Below, in pieces: positions 9,606 through 60,332 of a DNA stretch of 64,000 nucleotides. The translations under genes and the position numbers were made by a program. Position 1 is the first letter of the stretch; every line of letters begins with the position of its first letter. This stretch comes from Rhynchobatus australiae (taxonomy: Eukaryota). The stretch covers positions 20,769,569 through 20,833,568 of the forward strand of contig JAUZTB010000066.1 in NCBI GenBank assembly GCA_034780895.1, given 5' to 3'. The notes beneath the pieces are model-generated. The model was not told the DNA's origin and did no database searches. It saw only the letters and a program-made list of their open reading frames with translations.

Positions 9606-9703
9606 GGATGGGCAGTGTGGTGATATGGTGAAGGAAGGGGATGTCAGCAGTGTACCTACTGTTTAGGTGATTGACGGTACTATGAGCTTCCTTGTTCTTT
9701 CAG

Positions 9704-9788
9704 CACAGGGAGTAGCCTGATGCCCCAGAAGAAGAATGCTGACAGTTTGGAACTGATTCGAAGCAAAGCTGGCCGTGTGTTTGGGCGG
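9704..9788 (+). CDS. ASL: ASL internal exon (exon 12 equivalent): [28 protein letters not shown]
   Basis: ctttcag acceptor, gtaagg donor, 85 nt; fumarase/ASL superfamily signature GSSxMPxKxN. Confidence 0.97.
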
Positions 9789-13664: not shown

Positions 13665-14925
13665 GTAGGTGGTGCATGTTTCAGGATTTGTGTCTCACTA
13701 TCCTTCAGCAGTGAAGTTTCAGAAGTTCATGCCTTTTCGTTCTTTCTCCTGACATTTTTTTCGGTTTTGCTTTTTTAAAAAAAAGGGAAGGGCTTAGGAA
13801 TTTGGTAGTTCAGGGTCTGGGCCGAGCAGAGGGGTGGGTTGGCTAGGTCAGGGTTTGGGTCTGCGTGTAGAGGGTGGGTTTGGGGTTTCTGAAGGAATGG
13901 GTTAAATAATGGAATTTATCCGAGTGGGATCCCCGCTTGGATTAGTTATCAAAACCTGATTGTTGCAGTCATGACCAGCAATGGATTCCCCTGGCAACAC
14001 TCCAGAAGAATGATTTGCAACTGGAAGCTCTGGTTTGAACTTCCAGTGTAGTGCAAGGTGACTGAAGTGATCACAATTGCATTCCTTTACCTGGTGCTGA
14101 AGAGACAGGGCTTGTGTGACTGCATTGCTCAGCCAGTGACTTAGAAAATTCTTAATAATGTTTCATAATATCTGAAATACTTTAATAATTTCAGGACATG
14201 AGTCTCACACTATTGCTGTTGGCAGTAATGTGTCCACAAGTAGCTCAAACCTGGTGTTTCATGATCAATTTTTAAGTTGTCTAATTCCTGTTTATGGAAC
14301 CTTGCTATGGATAGTGTACAATGTGGCTGCTGCTTTTACTGATGCAACAAGTCAGAAGTCATTTATCAGAAGGGAAAAACCTTGAATATGCAGCGATGTG
14401 GCCAGTTGCCCTATAAACTTCACTTATCACAAGGTTCATNNNNNNNNNNNNNNNNNNNNNNNNNNNNNNNNNNNNNNNNNNNNNNNNNNNNNNNNNNNNN
14501 NNNNNNNNNNNNNNNNNNNNNNNNNNNNNNNNNNNNNNNGAATAGTTCTTCCCCTGTAAACCTACCAAATAAAAAGTCCAATAATAAAGTCCAAGTAGTG
14601 TTTGGAATCAAAGGTATGCTTGTGCAATTGTTTACAAGGCCTTGTGGACAGCATATTTACTCAAAAATAAAATAATTTACAAAGCAGCAACTGCCTTCTG
14701 CAGAAACGTGGAGCTTTTGGTGCTGAACCTGGAGACTGGAGACCTGGTGCATGCTGTACTCACAGTCCTTGGCATTCTGAGTTCCCAAGTACATGCCTCA
14801 TACATGATACCATGTGGGCAAAGTGCAGAAGCAGAAAAGAACTTCAATATTTCTGATGTGCTGTTTGGTATTGCCCTAACACTTAAAAAATCCCACTGTG
14901 AGTCTGGCCAAAATATCATGCATGG

Positions 14926-15272: not shown

Positions 15273-15415
15273 CTGACAGGCATCGATACCTCCACCTGCA
15301 AAACCAGCACAGATCTCTTTACTGCCTACATGATGGCCATACCAGCTGTTCTGTTGACAGGTTTCTAAAGGAATCAATTCAACTGCAGCCTCCTGAAGAA
15401 CACGTGCTGGCCTAC
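15273..15415 (-). CDS. Acrosin/TMPRSS12-like serine protease exon 4: (G)RPARVLQEAAVELIPLETCQQNSWYGHHVGSKEICAGFAGGGIDACQ
   Basis: Minus-strand tttag acceptor and gtaaag donor; 143 nt, phase 1 to 0; LQEA.V.LI, ICAG and DACQ (Asp189 S1 pocket) are typical of S1A trypsin-like proteases. Absent from the ORF track. Confidence 0.9.
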
Positions 15416-17819
15416 CTAAACAAAAATAAAGAGAAATTCAAATGAATTGTATAACTAGCCCACCTACGACCTAATTATTATCAGTACGATCTAAACCAAA
15501 ATGAAAAATCTTCCTATGATATGTGAAGAGTTAACAATATTTCCACTAGAACATGTGTGGCTTTCCTCTGGGTGTTTTAGTTTCCACCTACGTGCCAATA
15601 GAACATAAGTTGGTAAGTTAAGTGACCACTGTAAATGACCCCTGGTGTAGGTGGGATGGGGATATGTAAACAATAGGTTACAGGGAAAAGTGCTGAGACT
15701 CAATAGGCTGAATCCTTCTATGTCTTATGTAAAAATGGAACTGATATTTCTAATATCTAAAATAAGGTTTCAAACAAAACTGAAAATCCTTGCTGTTGTT
15801 TTTTTTATTATCCTTTCCAACCTTTGGCAAACTTTGCATAAGTGTCTTCAGCCTTGCCTGAAAGCCTGGCTCCACCCAGAGGTGTAACTGTGGTGGCTGA
15901 AGGTAGACCTGAAAATGTGAGTGCATTTGATGTGTGTAATTTCTCTGGGCAGAAACAGGAGAGTGCATTTCTCATGCTACCTTTAGTTTATTACCTTTCC
16001 AAAGTAGAATACATGAGGCAGAGAAGGACATACATTTCAAACAGCCTTTCAAGTATGCTCCACCATTCAATGGCCACAATTAGGGCCAATCTTGTATTTC
16101 CAATCCCCCTGTCCTTTGATACCTATAGTTTCCAAAATCTATCAGGGGCTGCCAGCTGATTCTACATTGTTGTAGATGTAGTTGTTCTTTCAAAGAACAT
16201 CTATTCCAGTGACAATAGCCTTTGAATTACTCTGCTGTTGTCTTTCTCATGGCAGGGGTGACAGTAAAAGGGAACTCTTGTGGAGAAACATCTTGGTAAG
16301 TTTTAGTGGTGCATGGATCATACATTCTGTCACCATTGTATACTGCTGAGAGAATGACAGATACTGAGCACTGAGACAGATATCGATACTGAGACATACA
16401 TGTTTTGTCCTTGAAGGTACCTAGTTTCATGAATGCCATTCAAGTGCACTTCATCAGACTCTTGGTTCAAGCCGTGAAAAGAGATGTGTTACTGACTACC
16501 CATCCTCCTTCCTGTTCCTTTATCTCTGGTAGGCTGTAGCTGGAGCTGGTCCAACTCAGTTTTGTTAATGAGAACTCCAAGACCTCAGTGTTGAGATGTT
16601 CATTGTTAGCAGTGCTATTGAAAATCAGGAGGAAAATCTTGTAAGGGTTGGTCTTTCCAAGAAAGTTATGTCACAAACACTGTTCAAGTCCTATTGTACA
16701 CTGTTTCATTACCCGAGGAGTTGTGAATCGAACTCAACAATGTAGAATCAGTTGGCAGCCCCAATCCTGTCTCTATGACGGAGGGTACGTCATTGAATAA
16801 GCCAAAAAATTTTTAACAACTTACTTTGGGCTTCAAAAAACCCTCTTCCTTTGAGTTACCTGTATATCAATCACTGGAAATATTTCCCTATGTGATCTTA
16901 GTTTTGCCAGTTGTCTATTGCTAAAGTCCAATAGATCAATGCTGCATAAATTAGTGGATCTGATTCAGTAGTTGCTCATATATGCATGTCCACCATAAGC
17001 TCACCTGATCCCAGACCTACTGTACTTATACCCACTTGATGTGCTCAATACACACTCACATCCTACTGCTAAACCAGTCAGTACAGACCAGCAAAACTGT
17101 CAGGGCTGGACAAATAAACCCCAGGGGCCATTGTCCTGAGCGGAAACCCTGTGCCCAGATTACTGATGAGAAAGCATTCCTCCTACACTCTGGAATCTGA
17201 AGGAAATTTACCCTTCAGTGCAGGCCCCTAATGCCTCTCCTCTTTCTCCCATTCACTTCCTTCTGTCAGGTTGGTCCAAGAAAATCCTACTGCCATACAC
17301 CTACCAGCAGCATCCTCTGAACCAATTTGTTATCATCATCAATCCAGATCTCACTTCCCCTAATCACGTGGTCTTTGATAACTTTGTGTTGACGCACCAC
17401 AAATACACTTTTTCAGCACTGTTTTGCATTGCAGTTCGCATTATTAGAACACTTATGGACCCTTTCCCCACTCCAATATTCTTCCCATTGCTAAACCTTT
17501 CTCAATCCTGAAATTGTAACCACCCCTCCCTTCCATCTCCTGTACTGCAACTTTCTTCTATCATCTCAGGTCTCTTGTACCCCCATCCATTCTGCTTTCC
17601 CAAGATACTCATTCATAATTCTTCCTGATTCCCGTACTACCTTCCTAACATTGCTGAGCTGGAACACAGTGTAACAAACATGGTCCAATGAGGGGATGAC
17701 GGTTCCAGGTGATGAACATAGAATAGTACAGCACAGAAACAGGCCCGTTGGCCCACAATGTTGTGCTGAACTAATTAAGCTAATGACACCTAATCCCTTC
17801 TGACCAGTAAGGCCAATCA

Positions 17820-18780
17820 ACTGGGTTATTTTGTCCTGTTTGGTGTTGAGTTCTTTGGGTTCATCCAGGCAAGTGGAGAGTATTTCATTGCAGTCCTGAC
17901 TTACAACTTGTAGACAGGGGACTCAGCAACAGAAATGCCATTGAATGTCAAGGGTCGATGATTAGGTTTCTTATGTTGGAATTGGTCATTGCCTAGAATT
18001 GGTCATTTGTGGTGTGAATGTTAGTTGCCACTTAGCAGCCATACTTGAATGTGGTCTAGGCGTTGCTGCACTAAGGTGTGAATTGTTTCGTTTGCTGAGG
18101 AGTTGAGAATGGAATTGAACCATGTGATCATCAGCAAGTAACCTCACTTCAGATCTTACGATAGATGGAAGGGCACTGAGGAAGTAGCTGAAGATGGTTG
18201 TGCCTAGGATACTACCCAGAGGAACTCCTGCTGTGACGTCCTGGTACTGGGATGATTGACCTCCACTAACCACAACCATCTTCCTTTGTGCAAGATATGC
18301 TGGAGGGATTTCCCCTCGATGTCCCTGATTTCAGTCTTATTAGTGCTCCTTGTTGCCACAATGCTGCCTTGACGTTAATGCCAGAGACTTCCATTTCACC
18401 TCTGCAGTTCAGTTTGCTGAGGGTGTGCTGAAATGTGAATCCAAGGGGTCTCCCAAAACACAGACTGGGCATTGGTGAGCAGGTTATTGATGAGAAGGTG
18501 CTGCTTGTTAATCCTCTCTATGACACTGAGGAAAGTCTGCATGTTGTTGGGTAGATGTCAGTATTTGAACTGTGCAGAACAACTTGGCTAGAATTGCCAT
18601 AAGCTCTGGAGCACAGATCTTCATCTAGGCCGTTGATTGGATCATAGCCTTTACTATATCCAGTGCTGTCAATCACTTCTTTATATCATGTAAACTGAAT
18701 TAAATTGATTGAAGACTGGCTTCTGCACTGCTGGGGAAGAAGATGAGATGCATCATCCACTTCTTTTTTAGGATCAAAGA
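17820..18780 (-). mobile_element. Degenerate CR1/L2-type LINE; a related copy lies at about 44140-45600
   Basis: Minus ORF VTAGVPLGSILGTTIFSYFLSALPSIVRSEVRLLADD is a decayed RT GVPQGSVLGP/FADD; shares ggatgattgacctcca...accatcttcctttgtgc with 45358-45400. Confidence 0.75.
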
Positions 18781-20689
18781 AATTTTCAGCAGAGAGAAGG
18801 TCATTTAATCCATGCCAGACTAGAGTCAGCTGTTTAGGTGAATTCAGCATCTTGACCAATAGCCTTGCTGGTTGTAGTACCTTATATTTTGTGCTCATCC
18901 AGACCCTTCAGAATGTGTGGAAAGTTTCAGTCTCTACAATTTTCCAGGCAATTAAGTTCCCAATGAACCCCAAAAGAGCTGATTGGAACCAATAAACACC
19001 CAATCCAATATTACTGGGTCCTGCAAAGTGGCTACGTTAGTGTTTGCCTTGATGTTAACATCAAATAAAAGGTAAAAGCAATATACGAATGGATGATATT
19101 TATCAAGTGCCTGCTGTCGGGAGTGTGGAGGGATCTGTGCTGGTCACTTGGAGCTATCATTATCTGCTGTTATTCTCCAGTTTGGAGATTGTGGGTGTGA
19201 TGGAGTGTCTTTCCTTGCATCCACCATCCCATCTAATTCAAAAAGTATGACTTCTCTTTGTCTGCTACTTCTTTGAAACTAGATATCCTATCAGCAAATA
19301 ATTAAGGCCTGCTTCCAACCATCCTATTCCTTTCCAATTTCTTCTTCAGATGGTTATAGCCAGAACAAAGATCAATCGCCTGTGGAACAAGGAGAAAGTT
19401 ATTCAAATTAGTGACTTTGGAATAGGCATAACCTAAATAAAAAATGATTGGAATGGTTTTCTAGGAGATACAATTTCCACACAGATATTGATAAGGATTT
19501 TATTTCCATTAAATTTAAGTAGTCTGGGCTGATGCAAAATACTTCTAATATAAAAAGTAATTATTTCCAAAAAAAATGGTGCATTAGCCTTACCAGATGG
19601 CTGAAGCTTTGAGAAACATCTTCATCTTTCCTAAAGTAGCTTGGCCTCCTTATTGTTAATGGTAACTAAGTAGATCTGCTGCAGACTTTTGCTTATATGA
19701 TTCCATTCTTTTCATCAGCACTTACTCAAGTTTATTTGCTCTTTCCTACAATAAACAGTTCTTTTGTATTATGTTGTAAACTCTTTACTGTCTACAATGT
19801 AATCATGATGTGTTTCCCATTCTTCAGTTTGTAACTTTGTGCCAAAAAATTGCATTTTAATTTCATAAATTATTTAACCTAAAATGAAAAGTTCTGTCTC
19901 AATACATAACAAACAACATTCCAATGAACCTTAGACTCTGTTTTTCTCCTTCACCACCAGGAGTTAGTTAATACTTAGTGGCCGATGCAAGGTCCCCAGT
20001 GCCTGTTCACCAACAGCTTTGGTATTCTGCCTTGCCTTCGATAAGGTAATGGAGAATGCGTCTCTGACTACATATAATGTGCCAAAGATCACCAGAGTCT
20101 TCTGATTACTTTCCAGCCCACGCAATTGTACCTGAAGAACAGTTTCTCAAGATTTATAAGAAATGAATGATATTGTTTGGTAGGCTTTTCAGAATTCCCA
20201 CTCTGATAGTTAGTAAAAACAGGGTCCTCCACATAATTGTCAATGGCGTCAGGACTTTGTGGTTCAGGAAATACTTGCTGTCTCTTCAGAGTTGTCCCAT
20301 CTGGTGGCACAGTAGGCCTCATGCTGGCATTGTGCTTTGAAACCCTGTGAGCATGGTCAGTCAGCTTCCACTGATCCTCAGGTGAAAAAAAGAGTTCCTG
20401 GCAACGTTGACTGGAATGGAACCAACTTAATACCAAGCTGGTGGAGTAAGTGTATATCAAAGACATCTGAGAAACCTTTAAAATAATAATTAATACCAAA
20501 TGCCAATGGAAATATAAATATGTCTCCTCTTTCATACATAGGTGATACAAGATATAGATGTGCTTTGGTGGCACAGTCAAGAAATCAAACAGTTTTTAAA
20601 AAATACTTAGGTAATCAGTCATCGTGTCCATTGATTTTAATTTTCTGCTTTAACTAATTAAATATTATATTTTTTATTGATCTCATAAT

Positions 20690-21040
20690 TCCTTACAACA
20701 TTTGGCCCATCGAGTCTATGCCAGCTCTCAGAGCAATCCCATTTTCCTGCTTATTTCCATAGAACCTATTCTCTCACATACGCTCATTGACCCTCCTCTG
20801 CTCCTTCCTCCAGCCTCCTATGCAATATCATGTATCAGATCTGCAAAGAACAACCCTTCTGGAACTTATAATATTCACAAAATATTTACCTACTAACACA
20901 AGAATCAACACATCTTTGGCATGTGGGAGAAAACTGGAGCACCTGGGCAGAATGCATATGGTCACAGAGAGAACATGCAAACTCCACACGGACAGCACTG
21001 GAAGTTAGCATCGAACCCGTGTACCTGTACCTGCCCTGAA
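20690..21040 (-). mobile_element. V-SINE (HE1-like) copy containing a 68-bp insertion
   Basis: Reverse complement of the V-domain ggagtttgcatgttctc...gctccagttttctcccacatgccaaagatg. Confidence 0.7.
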
Positions 21041-23099
21041 TTAGCACTGCCCTGGAGAATGGGGATTCATGGTATAACCAATGATAGTGACTGGACAAAC
21101 AGTTTTGGCAGCAGAGCCCATAATACTGAAGAATTTATTTTTCCATGCATACAAGTCCTAATGAAAAATGTCTAATGCAAGTAAATGCAATATCACGTAT
21201 CAGATCTGCAAAGAACAACTCTTCTGGAACTTATAATATTCACAAAATATTTGCACAAATAACATTTCACAGTCTGATAACCTATTCTGGCAGAGTAACT
21301 TCTCATTATTAAAACCTATCAGCAAGATGAACTTTCTCTGCCTAGATGGCATTTGTAGAATCAAACAGGCTTATACTACTCATGGGTAATCGAATGGGTA
21401 AATGATAGAATTCCTTAAATTATTGTTTTTTGCAGGATGGAAATTATAATAGATTGCAAAAAACAGGTTGGGCCTTGAAAATCACTGCATAGAAATACCT
21501 TAGTGTTGGGAATTATCCTGAGCAGCTCTTTCAAGGCAGATTTTGCTCACAGCATGCAATGTATATCATCTTTCACCTAACATCAGGCTAGGCTGAAGAC
21601 ACTGATGGGAAGGCAGTGAAGTTTTGACAATTAGTGACTGCTTCACTTTGAATTTGTAAACTTCATAATTTCATTTACAGGGAAATATAATCACATATGG
21701 TCCTGATAACTTGGTAATATCAAGTTCACCTAAATCACCTTTCACCTTCCTTTTCTCTAACCCATTTTTTAATATTTCTCACATGGGCTCAGTTAATTTA
21801 ATGAAAATCAGGGAGAGGTGGGGGTCAGGGGGTAACATTGCTGAAATTGGGAGATGTCCTACAATGGCTGGGCTCATCTTCACTAACCTACCTCCCATGC
21901 AGCAAAGTTAAAAATGAACCTCAGTATCACTTAGAATAACTGTAGCAAAAATTTAGTTCTGCTGTGTTCTTTCTTCATGGTACATAGTACGAAAAAAAAT
22001 TCCCAGAAAATGGAATTCACCCTCTTTGGTGCTATAAACGTGCTGTGCATAAGTGCTAATGTTCAAATGGATCCCCTGCAAAAAAAATCATGGAATTGCG
22101 CAACAGTACATAAACACAGCACCATGGAGTTTTATACATGGAATCGTGCACTGAAGTGGGATCTATGCAGTTCCCATCCAGAGCTATAAGCAGAGATCTC
22201 CACGCAACACTTCAGACCTTAAGGGAGGTCTCCTATGATATCATTCCACAGAGCAGCTACAGAAATGGTTACCGTGGAAATAAGAGAAAAACAGAGGGAA
22301 GGGTGAAGGCATAAATCAATGTCCTGTATGTCTAGGCAACCCCCAATGACAGTCTGCTCTGATCATCCTCCATGCCATGAGTAGCCCTAGGCATAATATT
22401 GGAACATGCAATGTGGGTGTGGTTTGAACAGAAACACTGTAAACAGTGAAGGGAACGCCACTGATGTGGTTTCCGTTATCCTGAGCTTTGGAAACTGATG
22501 CTGACTGATGTTGTGTGCAAGACTTTGATGTCACAGAGCAGATCTTATGCTAAACATCTCATGCCAATCCCTGTGCAACATGCTTTGAGTATTTTGGTCA
22601 ATGCTCAGCAATTGTTCACCCAATTTATATTGGTAAGGAAGGGCACGTGTGTTGTGTGACTTGTGATGTCATTAGATGTGTGAATGACTCCAGGAAAACA
22701 ACAAGGTGAATTATGCATTCTTCCAGACGGGCCTCATTTCACTAGTGTGATCACCTTTATACACAATTTGCACATGAATACAATGAGTCCAATTTCCAGG
22801 CACATGTTGTTCTCAGAAAATTACCAGCCTTGTCTTGATAAACATGGACCCCAGAACATAGCTCAATAGTTCTTCTTAATGCATTATAGAATGGAAGTTC
22901 ACTCTCCAATAGAGAATAATAGAACATTGTAAACACTGGCCAGAAGTTTACGTCCATTAAAATTAGTGACCATGTCTGTATTTATATATTTATAAAGGTA
23001 TATATGCATTATCCACAGCTCTTTTTGAGTTTACAAGGCATTCAACTCGAGGAAAGTTATATTAAGAACATCAGTAAGATCATGCGTTCTGTCAGCACC

Positions 23100-25100
23100 A
23101 CTTTCCTTCACTAACCACAAAGAATTGAGTCCCTTAATCTAAAAGTCTTTGATCTTGATCTTGAATATAATTATCAACCCAGCCTCCTTAGCCCCCTTAG
23201 GTAGATAATTCCAAAAGTTCGCCCCCTCTTTATGAAGAAGTTTCTTTTCATCTCTGTCCTGTAAGACGAATCCCTTATTTTGAGACTGTGCCCCTGATTC
23301 TGAATACTCCAGCCAAGGGAAATATCAACACTGCACCTACCCTGTCAAGCCTCTTAGAGGTTTGTATGTTTCAATCAGATCAGCTCGGATTCTTGAGAAT
23401 ACGGATCTAATCTACTTAATCGGTCTTCATAAGACAAGCCGACCATTCCTGGAACCTTTGCTACTTTTGCTCTATCACAAGTATATCCTTTCAGAGGTAG
23501 AGAAACCACATCTGTACAAAATATTCCAGATGTGGTCTCATCAGGGCACTATATCATTTGAACAAGATGTCTTTCATCTTGTATTCAAATCCTCTCTTAA
23601 TAATGGCCAATATACCATTTGCTTTGCTAATTACCCATTGAACCTGCATAGTAACTTTCAATGATCTGTGCAGAAGGACAATCAGGTCCATCTGTCATTT
23701 GAAAAAAATTCTTATTTTTTTCTACCAAAGTGGATGATCCCACATTTTTCCACATTGTATTCCATGTTCTTGTCCATTCATTTAGCCTGTATCCTAAAGC
23801 CTCTCTGCATCTTTCTCATAGCCTACATTTCTATCTAATTTTGTATCTTCAGCAAACTTAGCTATATTACATGTGATCTCCTCATTCCTATCATTGATAT
23901 GCATTATGAATATCTGGAGTAAAAACAGAGAATGCTCAAACACTCAGCGTATCGGGCAGCAGCTGTGGAAAGAGAGAAACGGTTAATGTTTCAGGTCTAA
24001 GACTCTTCAATCAGAAGTGAGAAAGAAAGAAAAACAAGTTAGTGTTCAGTAGGAGAGAATGTGAGGAGAGGATAGGAAGAAAAAAGGAATATCTGAGGGC
24101 CCAGCACCAATCCCCATGCAGCCCATTGACCACTTTGTTCCTACTCTCTAATTTCTCTCCATTAACCATAACTTAATCCACTGTGCTGTATCAACCCCAA
24201 TATTATGTGCTCACTTTGTTTCATAACCTCTCATGAGGCACCTTAACAAAAGACCTTCTGAAGGTTGAAAACACATCAACTGTTTTGCCCTCATCTATTC
24301 TGATTGTCACAATCTCAAAAAACAAACAGATTTATCAAACATAATTTCCCTTCCATAAATCCATGTTGACTCTGCCCAATCCTTCTGTAATAATAGATCC
24401 CAGCACTTTCCCTGCTGTTGATGTCAAGCTAACTGACCTACAGTTCCCTATTTCTCTCTCCCTCCTTTCTTAAACAGTGGGGTTACATCTGCTGCCTTCC
24501 AATCTTTGGGAACCATTCCAGAATTTGGAAGTTGGCAACCAATGCCTCCGTTATCTCCATAGCCACCTACTTCAAATCTCTAAGATGCAATTCATCAGCT
24601 TCAAGGGATTTATTGGCTCTCAGTCCTGTTAATTTCTCCAAAACTATCTATCAACTAATGTTAATTTCATTGAGTCCACATTTACTCTAGACCTATGGCT
24701 CTCCATTATTGCACTAGTTTTCTGTGCCTTATTCCATGAAAGCAGACATCAAGTATTAGTTTTACTTCTCTGGGATTTCCTTAATCCCCTGTATGATTTC
24801 TCTTGCCTCAGTCTATAAGGAATCCACATTAATTTTTTTTAATTCTTTGCTTTTTGCAAATCCATAGAGGCTCTTATAATGAAATACACCATATCATCTG
24901 TTATCTGTTCAATTAGTCACAAATTCAAAGAATTCCAACAGATTTATCAAATATGATTTCTCTTTCATAAATCCATGTTGACTTTTCCCAATCTTCTTAT
25001 TGTTGTTTATATGATTCCTGCTGGCAAGATCCAGTATTCTACTTCCCCTTTCCTTTTCAATGCCTTTATCCTTGTTTGCTGAGTTCTGAAATTTTCCCAA
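23100..25100 (-). mobile_element. Degenerate CR1 LINE with a nested Penelope-type fragment (23917-24086, flanked by gaatatctg repeats)
   Basis: Minus ORF IGKSQHGFMKEKSYLINLLEFFE is the CR1 RT SQHGFxKGxSCLTNLLEFFE motif; 9-bp direct repeat at 23908-23916 and 24087-24095. Confidence 0.75.
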
Positions 25101-26760
25101 TCCTCAGGATTATTGCCTTTTATATTCTTTAATGGTGACCAAATTTGGAAAAATGTTCATATCCATTTTATGTACTTTTAAAGTAATAAATTTTCCCAAG
25201 CCGTGTGCATAGGAGAGTCCAGAAAAGGGAGAGGGATCCAAAGTGATGATCGAAGGCTTGAGGAGCCTTCTAGGAGGAAGGAAAGAATGAACAAAGTGAG
25301 GGGAAGGGGCTGATTCAACAAAAGCTGCTTGCGTTTTACTCATTTAGTTCTAGGGTCTTATGTGGAAGATCTGTGGTTCGTTACCAGTATGTGGATTGCC
25401 TCGAGCTGCCAAGTTTGCAGCAATAGGCAATGATTAAAGACATTAAAAAAATGCTACCATTTGTGCCTTTCATTCTCTCCCGAGTTCCATGGTGTAATAC
25501 CATGGGCACATTCAGTCAACTATATTTCATCTATGAACTTAGAGTGTGGGTAGTCCAGTTAGTCCATTCAGGTCAAGCCCAGTCTGTCCTCACCAAACAC
25601 TTTCAGTAAATGAAAATTCAGTTGCTGGAAATATGAAATAAAAACAGAAAGTGCTAGTGAGGGGTTCCGTACCTGAAACATTAACTGTTTCTCTTCCCAT
25701 AGATGCCATCTGATCTATTGAGTGTTTACAGTATTTTCTGCTTTTATATACATTTCCATTATGGGTCACCAACCATCAATTTTCCTGTTCCTAACCAATG
25801 TGTGTAACTACTGCTACTGGCACTGTAATGGAGATTTGCTAATTCAGCTCAAGACTCTATAAGTGTGTATGGCTGAGTTCACACCATCCCTGCATTTACC
25901 AAAAGGACCACCTGAGGGAGCTCCAGTTACAGTTCTTTCTCTCTATCCAATAAAATTCAAATTGAACTTCACACATTCATCAAACTAGGGAGATTGCTAA
26001 CACTGTGTCTCACTTGTTTGTACCTCTTAATAACTGAATTATGCATCATTAAGAGACTTTCTCTCATGACTTTATCAGAGCATATTAAACAAACAATAAT
26101 TAATAAATGAACACCCCCTAAGAATATTTCCTTTATATTGAGGTACTCAAAAATATACTTCCTCCATCTTTTAACATGAAAGGCCTGTTAATCTAATGAC
26201 AATGGCATAATCAAATTCTACAGATCAATTTTTTTGTACAAATTCTGTGCTGATAAAACTTTGTGGATATATCATAACCATAGATTATTGTTAATATAAT
26301 CAATACATGTTCAGCTTATCTAAAATTACATGTTTAATTTTTTTTCAAAATGCTTGTGCTTTTAGACATTTTAACATTCTCATGCATGGGACAGGCATCA
26401 TGATCATGTTGTCAACAGCAGAAAGAACAATAGATCACATCTGTGCACAGGGTACAGTGAACACTGTAAGTACATTGATGATCATATCTGTAGCTACAAA
26501 AATATTCCCTGTTTGATTTTACCAACTATGTGACAACAATTGAAAAATACTATTGAAACTATGAATCTGCAAATGGTTTAGTCTCCACTGGAAAGTTAGT
26601 TCCACACTGGCCAGCATGGCTATTTGTAGAGGCATGTTTTCAGAACAAGCTAATCTGAAATTAAAGCCTGCCCAAAAGTTCATTTAATTTGGCAAAAGGC
26701 CCTGTAAAAACAATGATTTGTAAGACATTTCTTTATAAATATTACTCATAAAAATACTAC

Positions 26761-27023
26761 CATTTTGTTCCATAAGTCCCCATCCTGTAACGTGACATTG
26801 GGTCCACTTGTCAATACGAAATTTGCCTGGTTTTGGTAAACAGGCCGGCCTGATGTAGTCCCCAAACTTGATAGGTTGGTCCACTTTAAGCACCGCCACA
26901 TCATTTTTGCCATTAAAGTACTTCTCATGCGGTATTAATTTTTCTATTTTCCGTGTAATTGTCCATCTATCAGGCTTCGGCAGTTCTCTCAGCCCTATCA
27001 CCGCTCTCCAAACATCCTTGTTG
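26761..27023 (-). CDS. Acrosin/TMPRSS12-like protease exon 3: NKDVWRAVIGLREL...EKLIPHEKY...NDVAVLK...YIRPACLP...CHVTGWGLMEQN
   Basis: cccag acceptor, gtagta donor; 263 nt, phase 2 to 1; catalytic Asp (NDVAV) and the GWG motif. Confidence 0.93.
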
Positions 27024-27443
27024 CTGGGACGGTACAGAAGAAAACAACTGTTAACGATGGAACTAAGAATCACTTCTATAACTGAAGATTCCACTCTAAC
27101 TGCACAAAATGACAGCAAAGTCAAAGACACAATGAGGCTCCACAGTAACTACAATTAATAATAGAGTATTCACGCTTAGTGCTTGTGCAAAAAGATCTAT
27201 ATTTAAGTTACATTTTTACATTTTGCTTTAATAATAACTGCAACTAATGGCTGATGGTGGGAGTGTCAGTGGGGAAGTACTTTGGAGATAGCGACCATAG
27301 CTCTGTAAGTTTTAAGGCAGTTACGAAGCAGGACAAGGATGGACCCAAAGTTAAGTTTGAATCAAAATACACAAAAGAAATAAACAAAAGCTGTTGAATT
27401 GTCTCCTACTGAATAATAAAATAATGATGTTTGATTAACATAC

Positions 27444-27642
27444 CTTAATCCTTTGGAATGAGGAAAGCAGTGTGCTGCTGATAACAGCCAGTATTGACTG
27501 ATGACTGTTGCTCCACACACATGCCTGTGATTAATTGCCACTTGAAGGCTAACTTGCCAAGGCCATGCACCTGTCACTGCATCACGACCTCCTACTATCC
27601 GTGACTGGCTTGTCTTTACAGCGACAGATCTCGTCCCGCATC
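27444..27642 (-). CDS. Acrosin/TMPRSS12-like protease exon 2: [15 protein letters not shown]|[19 protein letters not shown]...[26 protein letters not shown]
   Basis: ctttcag acceptor, gtatgt donor; 199 nt, phase 1 to 2; R|IVGG activation site, WPWQVSL, catalytic His (AAHC). Confidence 0.95.
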
Positions 27643-30600
27643 CTGAAAGGAAAGAGATTTAAATTTGCAGAGCTTAATATCTCACAGTTTTATCAGCAGA
27701 TCTAATGTCAGTGTAGGTCCAAAAAGTCAAACCATTGGACAGGATAGCTAAAAATTAGCTAATTAATAAGGTACACCAAATTATGTAAAATAGATTGAGG
27801 AGTTGGTGGAACGATTACCTTTCAGTTCTTACCCATCATGCTGATCTTGTGGGAATATACTTGACTATAGAAGCAACTGAAAATTCTCTCCAAAGATTTT
27901 AGATGAATTAGAGATGATCTCACTGAAACATATAAAATGCTCATGGGGCTTTACAGGGTAGATTCAAGGACATAGATTCCCCTAGTTGTAGTATCTAGAG
28001 CATGGTTTCAAGATAAAGGATAAACCATTCAGGACTAAGATAAGAAGAAAGTTCTTTAGCAAGAAGGTAGTAAACCTTTGGAATTCTCTACCCAAGGGGA
28101 CTATGGAGGATAAGCTACAGAGCATATTCAAGGCAGAGATGAGTAGATTTTTAGATATCAAGGGAACCAAAAGGGGTTAGTGTAGGAAAGCAGCACTGAG
28201 GTAAAAGATTAGCCCAGAAGTTGAATGATGAAGCAGATGTGAGAAGCCAAATGGTCCCCTCCTTCATGTACTTATTTTCATATGTACCAGCTCACCTTGC
28301 AGAAACACTCAACCATTGCTGCCTCTACACTTCCTCAGAGCTTTATTTGTGCGGCCACTGATGACACTTCCCTCATCTTTGNNNNNNNNNNATAGTCCCT
28401 CCCTCAAGGCCTCACTATTAGACAAATGTTCTCCAGCTCTTTATTCAATAATTTTAATACCCACATCAATACCATCTTTCCAAGAGATTACAGACCATAG
28501 GAAGAAGCAGATAACTGGAGGAGATCCTCCACCTATACTGCTATTTAGAACATAGAACAGTACAGCACAAGAACAGGCTATTTGGCCCACCATGTTGTAT
28601 CAAACTAATTAAGCTAGTAATTAAATGCCTAACTAAACTGAAGGAAAAACNNNNNNNNNNNNNNNNNNNNNNNNNNNNNNNNNNNNNNNNNNNNNNNNNN
28701 NNNNNNNNNNNNNNNNNNNNNNNNNNNNNNNNNNNNNNNNNNNNNNNNNNTTTGATACTGCTGATAAACAGAACACAGGCACCATTTGGGAAGATTCTAC
28801 GTGCTGAGCCTTTAGAAGGCCAAAGACTGTGAACCAGTTGTTTTGCTGAAACAATCAATGACTTGTCATGGCAAGGCACTGACCACCTGAGAAGGGAAGT
28901 TAAACAAGGAAGGTCTGGGACATCACTGACACACTTTGAGATGACATTCCATGATCAAAAAAACATTTCAAGGACAAAAGTCCTCACAGGACAGTAAAAG
29001 CTTGGCTGTGTACCAATCACTTTTGTTAAGTATTTCCTTTGAAAATCTGTAACAAACTTAATAAATTTCAATCTGAATCAAGCTCTTTAACCTGTATCTT
29101 CCAGACCTTAATCAACAGAAACCCTTTGGTGTAACTTATGTAACAGTCTAACCTTGCATAACACGTTCAGCTACATTCCCTTTCACTGCTACAAATATTT
29201 TCTTTTCCTCATACCACTTCTAAGTGGTGCAATCACTGAAGTTTCAGCGGAGGTGGAAGCTATCAGCTCAGATCTTTGCTCTGACTACTGAGAAGTTCTT
29301 GAATATCATCCTTGGAGCCTTGGGCCATGTGAGACTGGGCCTTGCCATAGACTGCTTCATCTGAAGAGGGGCAGGCACTCTCGATGAGGCATTAAGCAGC
29401 ATGTGATAGGTGGACAAAAGAGGGGAGGTGAGGTGGGCACAAAGTGGTGATTGAGAGGTACTGACTGAGAGCAGGCGTTGAAGGGAAAGCAGTTCGAATG
29501 AATTCCCAGTTCTGTGCTCCCTTTCATTATCATCCGTTACCTGTTCTTCCCTGATGACCACCAAATGGACATTAATGGTGTGGTGAATAGCTAAGGTTGT
29601 AGCTAAGATATTATCCCTCCTAATCATAGGTGAAGGCCTGCGTGTTTTGATGTTATTACGGTGTTTGATGCCCCATGCCAGTGACTACTCTTTCCATAGA
29701 TGCAGTTATTACTGCAGTGCATATCATAGCATGACACTAATATTTAAGACAGGTTCCTTCAATCTCTCAGCAAGCATGCACAGAGCAGTTAGGAGTATCA
29801 CACATTCTCTGCTGGTGCTCCAGAAGCATTCTGCTCCTCCAAAGTCCTGAGGAAAAATATCTATGTACATCTTTGCAGAGCTTAAAGTTCTTTAGTCCTC
29901 TGCGGACTCTTCATAGTTGTTCCTGTCGCTACCACCTGCTCTTACTCACTTGTGATCTGTGGGTCACCAACTACCCTCATTGCAGATATCAACACCCACA
30001 CCTGTGATCTCTGCTTTCCATCCTTGCAGCACACCAGGAGGAAGCAGAAAACTGGAGGTGGTCCTTTACCAATCCCAATACTTAACTGTGAACAAGAGGA
30101 CGTGCTGAGTCACTGAATGCTGAATCAGGTGTGAGTTTAGAAGCTGGTCTTGCACCTTGACTGTCATCTTGCAGTCCTGCTCATGGGTAATTCAAAGACT
30201 CATAGGAAAATGAAAGAGAAGTAGAACTGTCAATATAAGAATAAAAGAGTATTTTTCACACATTGCGACTTGAAGTCTGTGGACGTATGAGTCTCTTATT
30301 CAATGTGTTTAAACATGGGAGATATCCAACAGCCAATCCCCAGCACTTCCTCCTTTTCACAGGTAAATAGAAGTTTATAAAATTATGACAGGCATAGATA
30401 CTCAGCTGGTATCTTTTCCCAGGGTCAAAACACCTAATACTAGAGGGCATGCATTTAAGGTGAGAGGAGGAAAGTTCAAAGGAGATGTACAGAGAATCAG
30501 GGAGACTTATNNNNNNNNNNNNNNNNNNNNNNNNNNNNNNNNNNNNNNNNNNNNNNNNNNNNNNNNNNNNNNNNNNNNNNNNNNNNNNNNNNNNNNNNNN

Positions 30601-32073
30601 NNNNNNNNNNAAAGGGGTATCGTGTATTCCTAGCATCATTGTTACACAGATCATAGTGCTACACCACATCCACTACATTACTTTTTGAATTATTAACACA
30701 ATCACATAATATTCCTGTTAGCTAAGCTTTTCATCATGCCTTACATTTACAATACATAGTTCCTATACTTGACAACTAAAACAAAAAGATTTAATATCAT
30801 ATTTACAATATTTACATGGTTCTCAATTCAGTATTTACAAAATGTACATCAAATTAAAACAATGCCACCCTTCTCCTGGATGCACTCCTGATCTGTCTGC
30901 CCAAGTCTTCGGGACCCTCCTACGCCACTGTGTCCCAGCCCTTCTTTCACCGCCTGGACCCAGGGAATCCCAAGAACACACAGTTAAACTGACAAACCTT
31001 GGTTAATATCACCTGTCACTTCAGTGCATTTAACTCTTCTGTCCCCGATTCACTTCCAAATGCACATTCTCTAGTTAAAACCCTGGCCTGTATTTCAGAC
31101 TAATAAACCATAGATAATCTATTTGTAAAGGGTGGTAAAATGGAAATCCCAATTTGGTAATTTGTCTGCACACCGAATTTGCATGTAAAACCTCACCTTA
31201 TATTTTTTCTAAACCCTGAATACCATGGAAGATCAAATTCAATGGCAATGGCAAGATCAAAGCATAGGATACAATACACATTTTGTATTGTGTTCAGTTT
31301 GCCTAATTTCAAAGACCTTAATGCAATCAGGACTAGAGATATGTGCCTTTATTTAGCATGGCCTATTTTCAAACAAACAAACCAAATGTTGGAGATTTCT
31401 GTTCCAATGTGCTAATTTGCAAGACAAGAGGCAGCTCAAATAGACCATCAAGACTAGCAGTCTACTTTGTTTGCAAAGAAATCCTCTGAGTATATTGTTA
31501 CTTGGGATTTGGATTATTCAATAGAAGTATTAGCACTGTAGTCACCATGTCAAAATCTTAACACTTTAATGTGGGTCTTCTACACAGACATTTATGTGAG
31601 AGTTCAAAAACATTGTCAGTAAGCAATAATAAACAAAACAATTGATATCCTCTGCTAGAGCTCTCAGTGCTATGGAATATTGGACTTCTCTGTTACATAG
31701 CGCCCAGTCACGACATCCATCTTTTTAAAAACGTCATATAAATTGCCGCAATTCCTGCTTGTTGCACAGGTAATCTCCTCAGTGATCCAATGTATTACAC
31801 TGACTTTTGTAATACTGTGAGAGAAAAAGGAAATAATCATCCCTCCGACCTTATTTCACCTCTCATAATTGAGCACAAAGACTCATATTTCCCAAGTTAT
31901 ATTTAATACTTTGAACGACCGCCTATTAATCACGGTATTGAGTATGAGAACTGATATATTAATGTGCAAAACCATCAAAATATCTTCATGTTCACTTTTA
32001 TTCCCTTTATGTTTGCTGAGAGAACATACTTATTACTTAATAAGATAAAATAATGCAGAGTTGACAAACTTAC

Positions 32074-32173
32074 CTATTCGTGCATCCCCATTTACTAAAA
32101 TAATGAAACCCAATAAAAAGATTGCACAGAACAAGAAACCATCGCTGAAAGCTGGACGGAAATCCGTGCTCAT
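32074..32173 (-). CDS. Probable protease exon 1 (signal peptide): MSTDFRPAFSDGFLFCAIFLLGFIILVNGDARI
   Basis: ATG, hydrophobic core and VNG-D cleavage-like site; perfect G|GTAAGT donor; phase 1 matches exon 2. Confidence 0.75.
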
Positions 32174-33689
32174 TATCCAGTTTGGACTGACTGCAAGGAC
32201 TTCAGCAAAACTACAGCGAACGTCACTCAGCCATATTATGACGAGAAATCATAATGACTGCTCACTTCACAATGTCTGTCACCAGAAGTCAATGCTGTGG
32301 GTGTATGGCTGTTTAAATGGGAATAAACATGCACTGGGAACAAACCGGAACCATTCAATTCCAGAGAACAAAACCGGACTTTGGACACCGTTCCTATATG
32401 GTCCATATCTCCGTTATTATCATTTAAGCGGTCAAATTACAAATAAGGATTACCAAACCGAGGACGCACAAAGTCATTGGGCACTGTTTCTAGATCACGA
32501 GGCCGCGTTATTGTTTAAATTACTCAAAGCATTTTTTTGGCTGCGATTTACACGACTGGTTTCCTCAATGATAATAGCGTTTCTCACTAGTCCTGTTTTG
32601 TGGCACCAGTCTCAAGAGAGCAGGTCTTTGAAACAGAGGATGCTTCAAGAAGTCGAATGGAACAGCATGTCACCTCTCAACACATGGTGTAAACAGGTCA
32701 TTCCGCAGCTTGTACCAAAATGGATCTCATGCTTTTCATTCGGATTTTAATTAATGTTCTGACGAAGAGTTTTCGACCTGAAAAGTTGACTGTTCCCCTT
32801 TCCGCATCTGCTACCTAGCTTCCTGACGATCTGCAGCAATTTTTGTTTTTTTATTTCTCAACTGTTCTCTTGCAACTTAATCTTCTGAATTGATTCACCA
32901 AACCAAAACGTTAAGCGGGGCATCGGAAGAACACATTGCCAGAGACTTTCACTGGGCTCCAGGGATATCGGTTCTGGTCGGAAATGTTCCTGCAGCCTAC
33001 CGCTTGGGCACTAATGCCTCCAACCACCATACTTGTCTCTTCATTTTAGCTTCAGATGAAAACAGAAAATACTGGAAATGCTGAGCAAGTCAGGCGGCGC
33101 TAACTAAATGGAAAGTGGAGCTAGCTAACATTTCAGGCCACTGACCTTCTTCCCGATCTGCTGAATGCAACATGTTGTGACATTTGCTTCCGAATTTCTC
33201 CATCTATTCAAACCCTTGCTTTAAAACCCCAATGATTTATTTTCTGGTTATAGCTGTGCAGTATAGACGAGTTTTCAGTTCTAGAGAATGCAGGGTAATC
33301 CTCAACCAACTGCCTTTCATCTTCCAAATGGGCAGAGTGCAGCCTTACAGTCTCAACATCTGCATCAACAATTTTTGATTATGCAGGGTGAGAAGTTCTG
33401 GGAGGAATCAAAACAGAAGTTGTTCAGGGTAAGCACAAGTTCCACCAGACGGTGGTGAGTGTTAGCAGAGGGGAACGGGGTGGATCTGTGGACTAGAAAG
33501 AAAGAGAGCCCGAAGACCTTCCAATGGGGAATGGAAGTGTACAGGAACTGGACGTCCAGTTTGGCTGGCTTTTTTATTTATAGATTTGCAGCAGTCACTC
33601 CATGTTTCTCCAATAAGTTTAGGTAGTTCTACATTTATACCTCCTTTAAACTGGCCTTTGTTTCTTATTACTGCCTTCTTTTAGTTTGC

Positions 33690-34817: not shown

Positions 34818-34846
34818 GTCATGTGATCTGACGCGTCACGTGACGC
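34818..34846. promoter_or_regulatory. CLEAR element GTCACGTGAC (34835-34844) plus TCATGTGA M-box-like E-box (34819-34826)
   Basis: Exact TFEB/MiT-TFE CLEAR consensus ending 18 nt before the ATG of a lysosomal hydrolase. Confidence 0.75.
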
Positions 34847-34862
34847 CGCACACGCTGGCAAG

Positions 34863-35042
34863 ATGGTAGGGAGCTGGTGGCCGCTGCTCTCGTTGCTCGG
34901 CTCCGCGGTCGCCCTGAGCCCGAGAGAGACCCGCTCCCGGGAGCTGAAGGAGCTGGGCGGATTGTGGAGCTTCCGGGCGGATCAGTCGTCGAGCAGGAAC
35001 CAGGGATTCGAGGAGAAATGGTACCAGCGTCCCCTTAGAGAG
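34863..35042 (+). CDS. GUSB: Beta-glucuronidase exon 1 (signal peptide, then [15 protein letters not shown]...WYQRPLRE)
   Basis: ATG in a CpG island, ag|gtgaga donor; matches the GH2 GUSB N-terminus. Confidence 0.95.
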
Positions 35043-59554: not shown

Positions 59555-59781
59555 TTATTCCTGTTTGGATTGGAGTTGCTGTTTCCAAGCCTCATTCAAG
59601 TAAACGAGTCGTTTATAGTTGATAATAAAGAGAATGAAGTTCAGGATATATGTAGTGATGCAAATTATGCAAAAGTCCTTCAGCACAAAATACAGGATGT
59701 AACTTAGATACAGTGCACCCACCACAGATACTATAGATGTCGTCATTAGTATTAAAGCAGCCATTGCACTCACGGTCATAC
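59555..59781 (-). CDS. VKORC1L1: VKORC1-like 1 terminal exon: [48 protein letters not shown]...[13 protein letters not shown]
   Basis: cctgcag acceptor; 227 nt; redox CxxC (CIIC); [13 protein letters not shown]-terminus characteristic of VKORC1L1; earlier exons lie beyond the window. Confidence 0.96.
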
Positions 59782-60332
59782 CTGCAGGAAAGAAACACAT
59801 GTTACTTCATGAACAAAAGTAGTTCCTTATACAAAACAGCTACCTAGGTTTCCACAAGTAAATGTCACTGCATTTGAAATCGTGAAATATAGACTGGGAC
59901 ACAGACAGGCAGTTCTGTTTAACCAACTGGATATTTATAGCAGATAAAGATGCATAACAATATTTAGTAAAAGCAGCTAATAGTACTATTTCTGTACCAT
60001 GTATGTTGCTTAAACCAGGATATACAAATTTTCTCCTGATACCTTGGCCAAGAACTTCTGAAAATTTGTTCAAGACAATGGACATGTACACCAACTGTAC
60101 AATACAGTTCTTCATTTTATACTATCCAGAAAATTATTCCATCTTTATTTTGCAAAGGCTCTTAGCAACGTGCAAATATGCGGTTAACATGAATTATTCA
60201 GTTTTACTCGAGACATACTTTTGAATGGATTTTTGCAGCATCAGTTACTGAGAACTGCTCATAACCTGAACAGCTTGCAAGTCGGAAATATGGCAACAAA
60301 CAGAGTTTCCACACTACAGAAGATGCCTGCAG

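What the first reader, a model, noticed from the sequence alone, without database searches (positions are those of the whole stretch)
15273..32173. Secreted acrosin/TMPRSS12-like protease gene lying between ASL and GUSB
Seen: four minus-strand exons with canonical splice sites and matching phases (1, 2, 1, 0). They encode a signal peptide, a one-Cys propeptide, R|IVGG, catalytic His and Asp, and an Asp189 trypsin-type pocket. Exons 1 and 4 are invisible in the ORF track. Established: the intron positions (after HCF.., after GWG.., after DxCQ) and motifs (WRAVIG, EKxIxHEKY, C..xxWY) match the 5-exon acrosin/TMPRSS12 sperm-protease type. From memory, no such gene sits in the mammalian VKORC1L1-GUSB-ASL block. 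Inference: a lineage-specific or ancestrally retained reproductive protease, divergent from GUSB across 2.7 kb. A CRE-like TGACGT lies on the minus strand at 32220-32225, just upstream of the ATG.
Basis: partly seen in the sequence, partly recalled or inferred. Interest (0 to 1): 0.7.

Follow-up and report, generated by a model that had tools for sequence, protein, structure and literature searches.

The report
Sharks' third acrosin-like protease gene
This is a very likely intact five-exon gene, shared by sharks, rays and chimaeras, for a trypsin-type protein-cutting enzyme that is predicted to be membrane-anchored and is likely a third, unnamed relative of the sperm enzymes acrosin and TMPRSS12 rather than either of them; a role in sperm is inferred, not shown.

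Summary
The four exons are real and open. The missing fifth exon, with the catalytic serine and a hydrophobic tail, lies on unplaced contig C2270, which very likely belongs in an N run 733 bases past exon 4. One contig from a related species splices exon 2 to exon 3. Orthologs are annotated, mostly as 'acrosin-like', in sharks, rays and chimaera. It is not acrosin: the ACR ortholog lies elsewhere, beside an arylsulfatase and a SHANK-type gene. Trees put it outside ACR+TMPRSS12 (93/89), but grouping with TMPRSS12 is not rejected (p 0.156). A 2026 paper (PMC13762310) scored the catshark copy as TMPRSS12 without synteny, while elephant shark has three separate accessions. Best reading: a third paralog, likely membrane-anchored rather than secreted, kept in cartilaginous fish. 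Testis expression is untested. The intron pattern is not diagnostic. A new member of a known kind; modest interest.

The parts
32074..32173 (-). Exon 1 coding part: ATG and hydrophobic signal peptide (33 codons, phase 1)
   Evidence: (48-79% identity to ortholog N-termini)
27444..27642 (-). Exon 2: propeptide Cys35, activation site R48|I49-VGG, catalytic His91 (phase 2)
   Evidence: spliced to exon 3 in run X13
26761..27023 (-). Exon 3: catalytic Asp141, Cys161, GWG; 99-loop two residues shorter than in ACR and TMPRSS12 (phase 1)
15273..15415 (-). Exon 4: C..WY motif, S1 pocket Asp232 (Asp189 equivalent) (phase 0)
14440..14539 (.). 100-N run: likely place of exon 5 (G000:C2270:1942-2301, minus strand; 119 codons with GDSGGP, Ser238, Ser/Thr-rich linker and hydrophobic tail) and of the last ASL exons (C6062). 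Placement is inferred.
   Evidence: (8-base end overlap at 1 of 17 N runs)
32220..32225 (-). TGACGT CRE half-site 47 bases upstream of the ATG, in a CpG-enriched kilobase (32001-33000); function untested
9657..9785 (+). Neighbour: ASL exon (Lyase_1); ASL runs tail-to-tail towards the protease
34863..35042 (+). Neighbour: likely GUSB exon 1, divergent from the protease (name recalled; downstream exons are Glyco_hydro_2_C)
59558..59806 (-). Neighbour: VKOR-family exon (likely VKORC1L1)

Best explanation
This gene very likely encodes an intact 354-residue trypsin-type zymogen, predicted to be tethered to the cell surface by a C-terminal GPI or tail anchor, and it is likely a third ancient paralog of ACR and TMPRSS12 kept in cartilaginous fish, with an inferred role on sperm or male germ cells. 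Shown by sequence: signal peptide, R|IVGG site, His91/Asp141/Ser238, Asp-Gly-Gly trypsin pocket, the cysteines for a propeptide link and four domain disulfides, a 71-residue tail. From S1A biochemistry (own knowledge): after cleavage at Arg48 the new Ile49 terminus orders the active site, the propeptide stays attached through Cys35-Cys161, and the enzyme cuts after Arg or Lys. Inferred: anchor type, tissue, and substrates (sperm-surface or egg-coat proteins, by analogy with TMPRSS12, PRSS55 and acrosin). My odds: intact gene 0.95; third paralog rather than TMPRSS12 0.75; membrane-anchored 0.75; reproductive role 0.6.
For: Intact: exon 5 was the best of 51 matches in the genome (80% identity, E 4.8e-27; the others at most 55%). 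It has an AG acceptor in phase 0 and a stop where orthologs end. The joined frame has 354 codons and no stop. A contig of run X2 runs 1820 letters beyond the N run's flank. Spliced: one X13 contig skips exactly intron 2 (420 bases, GT-AG), and DNA-like runs X3 and X1 show no such joint. Conserved: 9 of 33 candidates, all sharks or rays, 70-78% identical over exon 3; elephant shark 61% over the domain. Not ACR: a separate gene at C63:16.06 Mb lies beside an arylsulfatase and a gene ending in a SAM domain. It is 73-95% identical to the three accessions that PMC13762310 calls chondrichthyan ACR. Third lineage: the clade is 100/100 and lies outside ACR+TMPRSS12 (93/89; 84/90). None of the 4 DIP2-type hits is on this scaffold. 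Elephant shark has an ortholog (XP_007894772.1, 368 aa) distinct from the paper's ACR and from its TMPRSS12, whose best hit lies on the dip2b scaffold. Grouping with PRSS21/27/33 is rejected (p 0.0055). Tail hydropathy is 1.2-2.8 in 9 of 9 clade members examined, like TMPRSS12 (2.2-2.5).
Against: AU tests do not reject grouping with TMPRSS12 (p 0.156) or ACR (p 0.086). The ACR+TMPRSS12 branch is not starred, and the three groups together have only 78/52. PMC13762310 lists the catshark ortholog as TMPRSS12. I never saw the elephant-shark or epaulette-shark TMPRSS12 sequences. This genome's TMPRSS12 candidate is one exon (C35298): it joined TMPRSS12 in the quick tree (83) and by profile score (75 against 66) but was unplaced in the careful tree. 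X13 is one contig of depth 3.4 from another organism, RNA only by guess, tissue unknown, and it reads on into intron 3. Against that organism 8 of 10 listed coding differences change the residue (pN/pS about 1.0-1.4), which also fits relaxed selection. No GPI or signal predictor was run.
Confidence: 0.5

Rival explanations
1. It is the chondrichthyan TMPRSS12 ortholog, moved to the ASL-GUSB block, acting as a membrane protease in sperm maturation.
For: PMC13762310 Tables S3B and S12 assign catshark XP_038670763.1 to TMPRSS12. Same layout with hydrophobic tail. AU p 0.156. No complete TMPRSS12 was found in this genome.
Against: The paper's catshark interval was undefined (anchors on different chromosomes; the dip2b hit is 74% against 83% in elephant shark). 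The accession number was found in Tables S2, S3B and S12 only, so seemingly not in the large tree's Table S7. Elephant shark has a different TMPRSS12 accession, and the epaulette-shark one is 314 aa against 354-369 aa for complete models of this clade. The trees keep it outside TMPRSS12. The DIP2 hit on GC-rich C94 lies 22 kb from the scaffold end in sequence that is 40-63% N, so a true TMPRSS12 could be unassembled.
Confidence: 0.2
2. It is a third paralog but works as a non-reproductive epithelial surface protease, like prostasin or matriptase.
For: Domain identity to an ST14-like protein (44%) equals that to ACR and TMPRSS12 (41-44%). No tissue data.
Against: It shares the C..WY motif and the longer loop before the F-Y/W-x-V/L-G strand with ACR and TMPRSS12. 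Acrosin is the best solved-structure match. Both relatives are testis-biased (PMC13762310 section 3.5). Fast surface-loop change fits a reproductive protein.
Confidence: 0.22
3. It is a decaying copy in this species group: still open, but released from selection.
For: pN/pS near 1 over 318 coding bases against organism C; omega of 0.3 or less is unlikely on these counts (P about 0.01).
Against: Small sample (10 listed differences from a cut table). None hits a catalytic residue or cysteine. No stop in 354 codons, canonical splice sites, 72-78% identity to sharks and rays.
Confidence: 0.08

Closest known systems
RefSeq 'acrosin-like' models of cartilaginous fish (XP_072099528.1, XP_038670763.1, XP_067866407.1, XP_007894772.1)
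   Same: Orthologs: same architecture, 61-78% domain identity, one clade at 100/100.
   Different: Automatic names only (also 'TMPRSS9-like', 'elastase 2A'). Six accession or locus ids were in no main text searched; the catshark one stands in a supplement as TMPRSS12.
TMPRSS12 (bony vertebrates)
   Same: Signal, one-Cys propeptide, R|IVGG, trypsin pocket, hydrophobic C-terminus; 42-44% identity.
   Different: Not in the DIP2B-SCN8A interval; tail 71-88 against 30-36 residues; 99-loop two residues shorter; separate clade.
Acrosin (ACR)
   Same: Best solved-structure match (1FIW, E 5e-61); same exon pattern; shared C..WY motif.
   Different: The ACR ortholog is another gene (C63), 39% identical. 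Bird and frog ACR lack a hydrophobic tail.
GPI-anchored PRSS21 (testisin) / PRSS27 / PRSS33 group
   Same: Signal, protease domain, predicted C-terminal anchor; testisin is GPI-anchored on sperm (PMC9114714 passage).
   Different: One clade with them is rejected (p 0.0055). No true PRSS8, PRSS36 or PRSS53 row was in the tree.

Membership tests
S1A trypsin-like protease | His/Asp/Ser triad in AAHC, ND-V-A and GDSGG motifs | tested here: met
   His91, Asp141 in the window; Ser238 on C2270
S1A trypsin-like protease | Arg-Ile-Val-Gly-Gly activation site and Asp189/Gly216/Gly226 pocket | tested here: met
   R48|I49; Asp232, Gly261, Gly271
S1A trypsin-like protease | Proteolytic activity | not testable with these tools
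   needs an assay
ACR ortholog | Position at the SHANK3-RABL2B locus (PMC13762310 section 2.2) | tested here: not met
   Neighbours are ASL, GUSB and a VKOR gene; another protease lies by an arylsulfatase and a SAM-ending gene. RABL2 itself was not identified.
ACR ortholog | Groups within the ACR clade | tested here: not met
   ACR clade 97/93 without it; forced grouping not rejected, p 0.086
TMPRSS12 ortholog | Position in the DIP2B-SCN8A interval | tested here: not met
   0 of 4 DIP2-type hits on scaffold C66; SCN8A not searched
TMPRSS12 ortholog | Groups within the TMPRSS12 clade | tested here: inconclusive
   outside in 3 of 3 trees; AU p 0.156; no chondrichthyan TMPRSS12 row available
TMPRSS12 ortholog | Hydrophobic C-terminal anchor | tested here: met
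   hydropathy 2.19 over 15 residues; hydropathy only
TMPRSS12 ortholog | No other TMPRSS12 in the same genomes | tested here: inconclusive
   separate accession in elephant shark; unstable single-exon candidate C35298 here
ACR/TMPRSS12 sperm proteases (works like) | Testis-biased expression | not testable with these tools
   no tissue-labelled run was offered
ACR/TMPRSS12 sperm proteases (works like) | Five-exon pattern with phases 1, 2, 1, 0 | tested here: met
   same as C63 ACR exons 2-5, but shared with many S1A genes, so not diagnostic
PRSS21/27/33 group | One clade with these proteases | tested here: not met
   AU p 0.0055

The most novel reading that the evidence does not exclude
The jawed-vertebrate ancestor had three acrosin-type sperm proteases, not two. 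The third, at ASL-GUSB, survives in cartilaginous fish (and in the unnamed source of P0401), evolves fast at its active-site loops, and supplies the canonical trypsin-type sperm activity in sharks and rays, whose true ACR has swapped the Arg activation site for an acidic one and lost Gly193.
Probability: 0.2. Interest if true: 0.6.

Novelty: new member of a known kind. Interest (0 to 1): 0.37.

Why it matters
It would change the account of sperm-protease evolution from one ACR-TMPRSS12 duplication to three lineages with differential loss, and correct the catshark TMPRSS12 call in a 2026 study. It names a testable candidate for sperm-surface proteolysis in internally fertilising sharks and rays. 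It also shows that this locus is broken by the assembly, not by evolution. The enzyme class itself is ordinary.

Tried and rejected
Pseudogene for lack of exon 5: rejected. ACR orthology: rejected by synteny. Paralogy with the prostasin-type cluster beside VKORC1 (that neighbourhood is recalled; one search gave no useful paper): rejected for PRSS21/27/33. Intron positions as a family marker: rejected. Run search: no RNA holder listed on record. Ends of C6062 match no N-run flank or C2270 end, and its end had no second match, so more sequence is missing there. The search for chondrichthyan TMPRSS12 with a two-exon profile returned ACR orthologs but no close relative of C35298 among the 120 of 131 hits listed. 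Searches with gar and axolotl TMPRSS12 found no clear ortholog here (127 of 199 and 125 of 177 candidates scored). ESM Atlas gave only generic trypsin clusters. Earlier scan findings: nothing relevant. Literature searches found one relevant paper and none describing this gene as its own lineage; subscription journals are not covered. No structure or complex was predicted: the fold is not in doubt.
Full report
Observation. The four minus-strand exons are as reported: AG/GT sites, phases 1, 2, 1, 0, and 235 open codons. Exons 2-4 match Pfam Trypsin. The neighbours are ASL-family exons on the plus strand to the left, GUSB-family exons on the plus strand to the right and a VKOR exon beyond. The likely GUSB start is 2690 bases from the protease start (the name of that exon is recalled). 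The CRE-like hexamer is present, but it is a half-site, one of 9 in the window, in a CpG-enriched kilobase. I give it little weight.

The missing exon. No GDSGG exon is readable in the window. A search of the genome with part of a ray ortholog gave 51 matches of 68 candidates; the best by far is on the unplaced 3234-base contig C2270 (80%, E 4.8e-27). It has an AG acceptor in phase 0 and 119 codons: catalytic serine, a Ser/Thr-rich linker and a hydrophobic end. The contig's end repeats the 8 bases flanking the 100-N run at 14440-14539; the other 16 N runs overlap by at most 4 in either orientation. A contig of run X2 continues 1820 letters past that flank, but I did not lay it on C2270. The last ASL exons are also on an unplaced contig, C6062. 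I cannot tell a gap from a withheld stretch, but the simplest reading is an assembly gap that holds both gene ends, tail to tail, with intron 4 about 1.66 kb.

Conservation and splicing. Exon 3 found 9 proteins among 33 candidates, all from sharks and rays, 70-78% identical, 6 of 9 named 'acrosin-like'. Cluster members add more species and elephant shark. With a full-length ray ortholog, the 120 listed of 4449 hits (7962 candidates scored) held nothing outside this clade above 46% identity. That is moderate evidence of absence from annotated bony vertebrates, since two-domain proteins crowd the list. One 572-base contig of run X13 (another organism, RNA by guess, depth 3.4, tissue unknown) skips exactly intron 2; runs X3 and X1 do not. 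It reads on into intron 3, as a partly spliced transcript would.

Not acrosin. A second gene at C63:16.06 Mb lies beside an arylsulfatase and a gene ending in a SAM domain (216 selected ORFs were scanned). That fits the ARSA-SHANK3-ACR neighbourhood (SHANK3 anchor from PMC13762310 section 2.2; ARSA recalled). Its orthologs include the three accessions that the paper calls chondrichthyan ACR. The window gene is 39% identical to it.

TMPRSS12 or a third paralog. PMC13762310 lists the catshark ortholog of this gene as TMPRSS12, although its catshark anchors fell on different chromosomes. For elephant shark it uses another accession (243 aa), with the best hit on the dip2b scaffold, and for epaulette shark one of 314 aa. 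The elephant-shark ortholog of the window gene is a third accession of 368 aa that the supplement does not contain. In a careful tree of 43 domains (22 of 65 rows dropped as redundant, long or partial), the clade is 100/100 and lies outside ACR+TMPRSS12, 93/89. A second tree agrees at 84/90. Forced grouping with TMPRSS12 (p 0.156) or ACR (p 0.086) is not rejected; with PRSS21/27/33 it is (p 0.0055). Labels of the bony-vertebrate rows rest on database names and the tree; only the gar row is an accession from the paper. A GC-rich single exon on C35298 may be this genome's TMPRSS12: it grouped so in the quick tree and by profile but not in the careful tree. I put the third-paralog reading at 0.75.

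A more distant relative. P0401, an unnamed 298-residue protein from the representative search, was the only domain outside the named clade to score above 200 bits and best with this clade's profile, of 863 domains. It shares the two-residue 99-loop deletion and is sister to the clade at 94/75. This genome has no close copy of it: listed matches are at most 60% identical, and the window gene's exon 3 is its best single internal exon. The lineage may therefore reach beyond cartilaginous fish; its source is unknown.

Mechanism. Shown: signal peptide, Cys35, R48|I49-VGG, His91/Asp141/Ser238, Asp232 with Gly261 and Gly271, paired cysteines and a 71-residue tail. From general S1A knowledge: activation at Arg48, a disulfide-tethered propeptide, cleavage after basic residues. 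Inferred: a GPI or tail anchor from hydropathy alone, as in TMPRSS12 and unlike bird and frog ACR. Inferred by kinship: a sperm role, since ACR and TMPRSS12 are testis-biased (section 3.5) and TMPRSS12 and PRSS55 act on sperm-surface ADAM3 in mice (PMC9114714 passages). Two hints fit. This clade diverges much faster than elasmobranch ACR (72-78% against 93-95% identity between this species and other sharks and rays). And 8 of 10 listed coding differences from organism C change the residue, none a catalytic residue or cysteine. The second could equally be relaxed selection.

The intron pattern is common: the phase-0 intron before GDSGG is in 10 of 10 other fetched genes with that exon. 'Secreted' is doubtful. 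The gene model is already in RefSeq.

Papers seen. PMC13762310: abstract, passages, sections 2.2, 3.5, 4-4.3, 4.5, the supplement list, supplement parts 2, 12 and 13 of 34, and keyword hits. Its figures (trees 3E and 4B, synteny 4A) could not be seen and may bear on the TMPRSS12 call. PMC9114714 and PMC7886492: passages only; the latter's table of human 7q11.21 genes lists ASL, GUSB, VKORC1L1 and CRCP and no protease. Searches found no description of this gene as a separate lineage.

Verdict. A real, conserved, very likely functional protease gene; a new member of a known kind; likely a third ACR/TMPRSS12-type lineage. Interest 0.37.

Noticed in passing
L022:1740-6820 (G000:C63:16.058-16.064 Mb): Elasmobranch ACR is highly conserved (93-95%) yet atypical: an acidic run and Glu before ILGN instead of Arg before IVGG, and Ala or Thr at Gly193. 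It could not be activated by a trypsin-type cut at that site.
   Followed up: partly
L025:3665-4921 (G000:C65:14.28 Mb): Intronless 419-codon S1 protease ORF without the IVGG site and with a non-trypsin pocket; about equally near ACR, TMPRSS12 and this clade, weakly sister to this clade (82; 80/61). Possibly an old retrocopy.
   Followed up: partly
L042:428-697 (G000:C35298): Single protease exon on a 70% GC, 1054-base contig; candidate fragment of this genome's TMPRSS12, placement unstable.
   Followed up: partly
window 1242-52606: ASL and GUSB lie on the same strand here with the protease between them; in human they are head to head (recalled, not checked). An inversion at this spot may relate to loss of the protease.
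   Followed up: no
window 34818-34846: Two close GTCATGTGA / GTCACGTGAC elements just upstream of the likely GUSB start, resembling the lysosomal CLEAR motif (recalled).
   Followed up: no
L020 (G000:C6062): Unplaced contig with two late ASL exons and the start of the last one; the end of ASL is missing from the scaffold.
   Followed up: partly
P0401: Unnamed divergent relative of this clade with an altered activation site and ANSGG in place of GDSGG, so likely impaired as an enzyme.
   Followed up: partly
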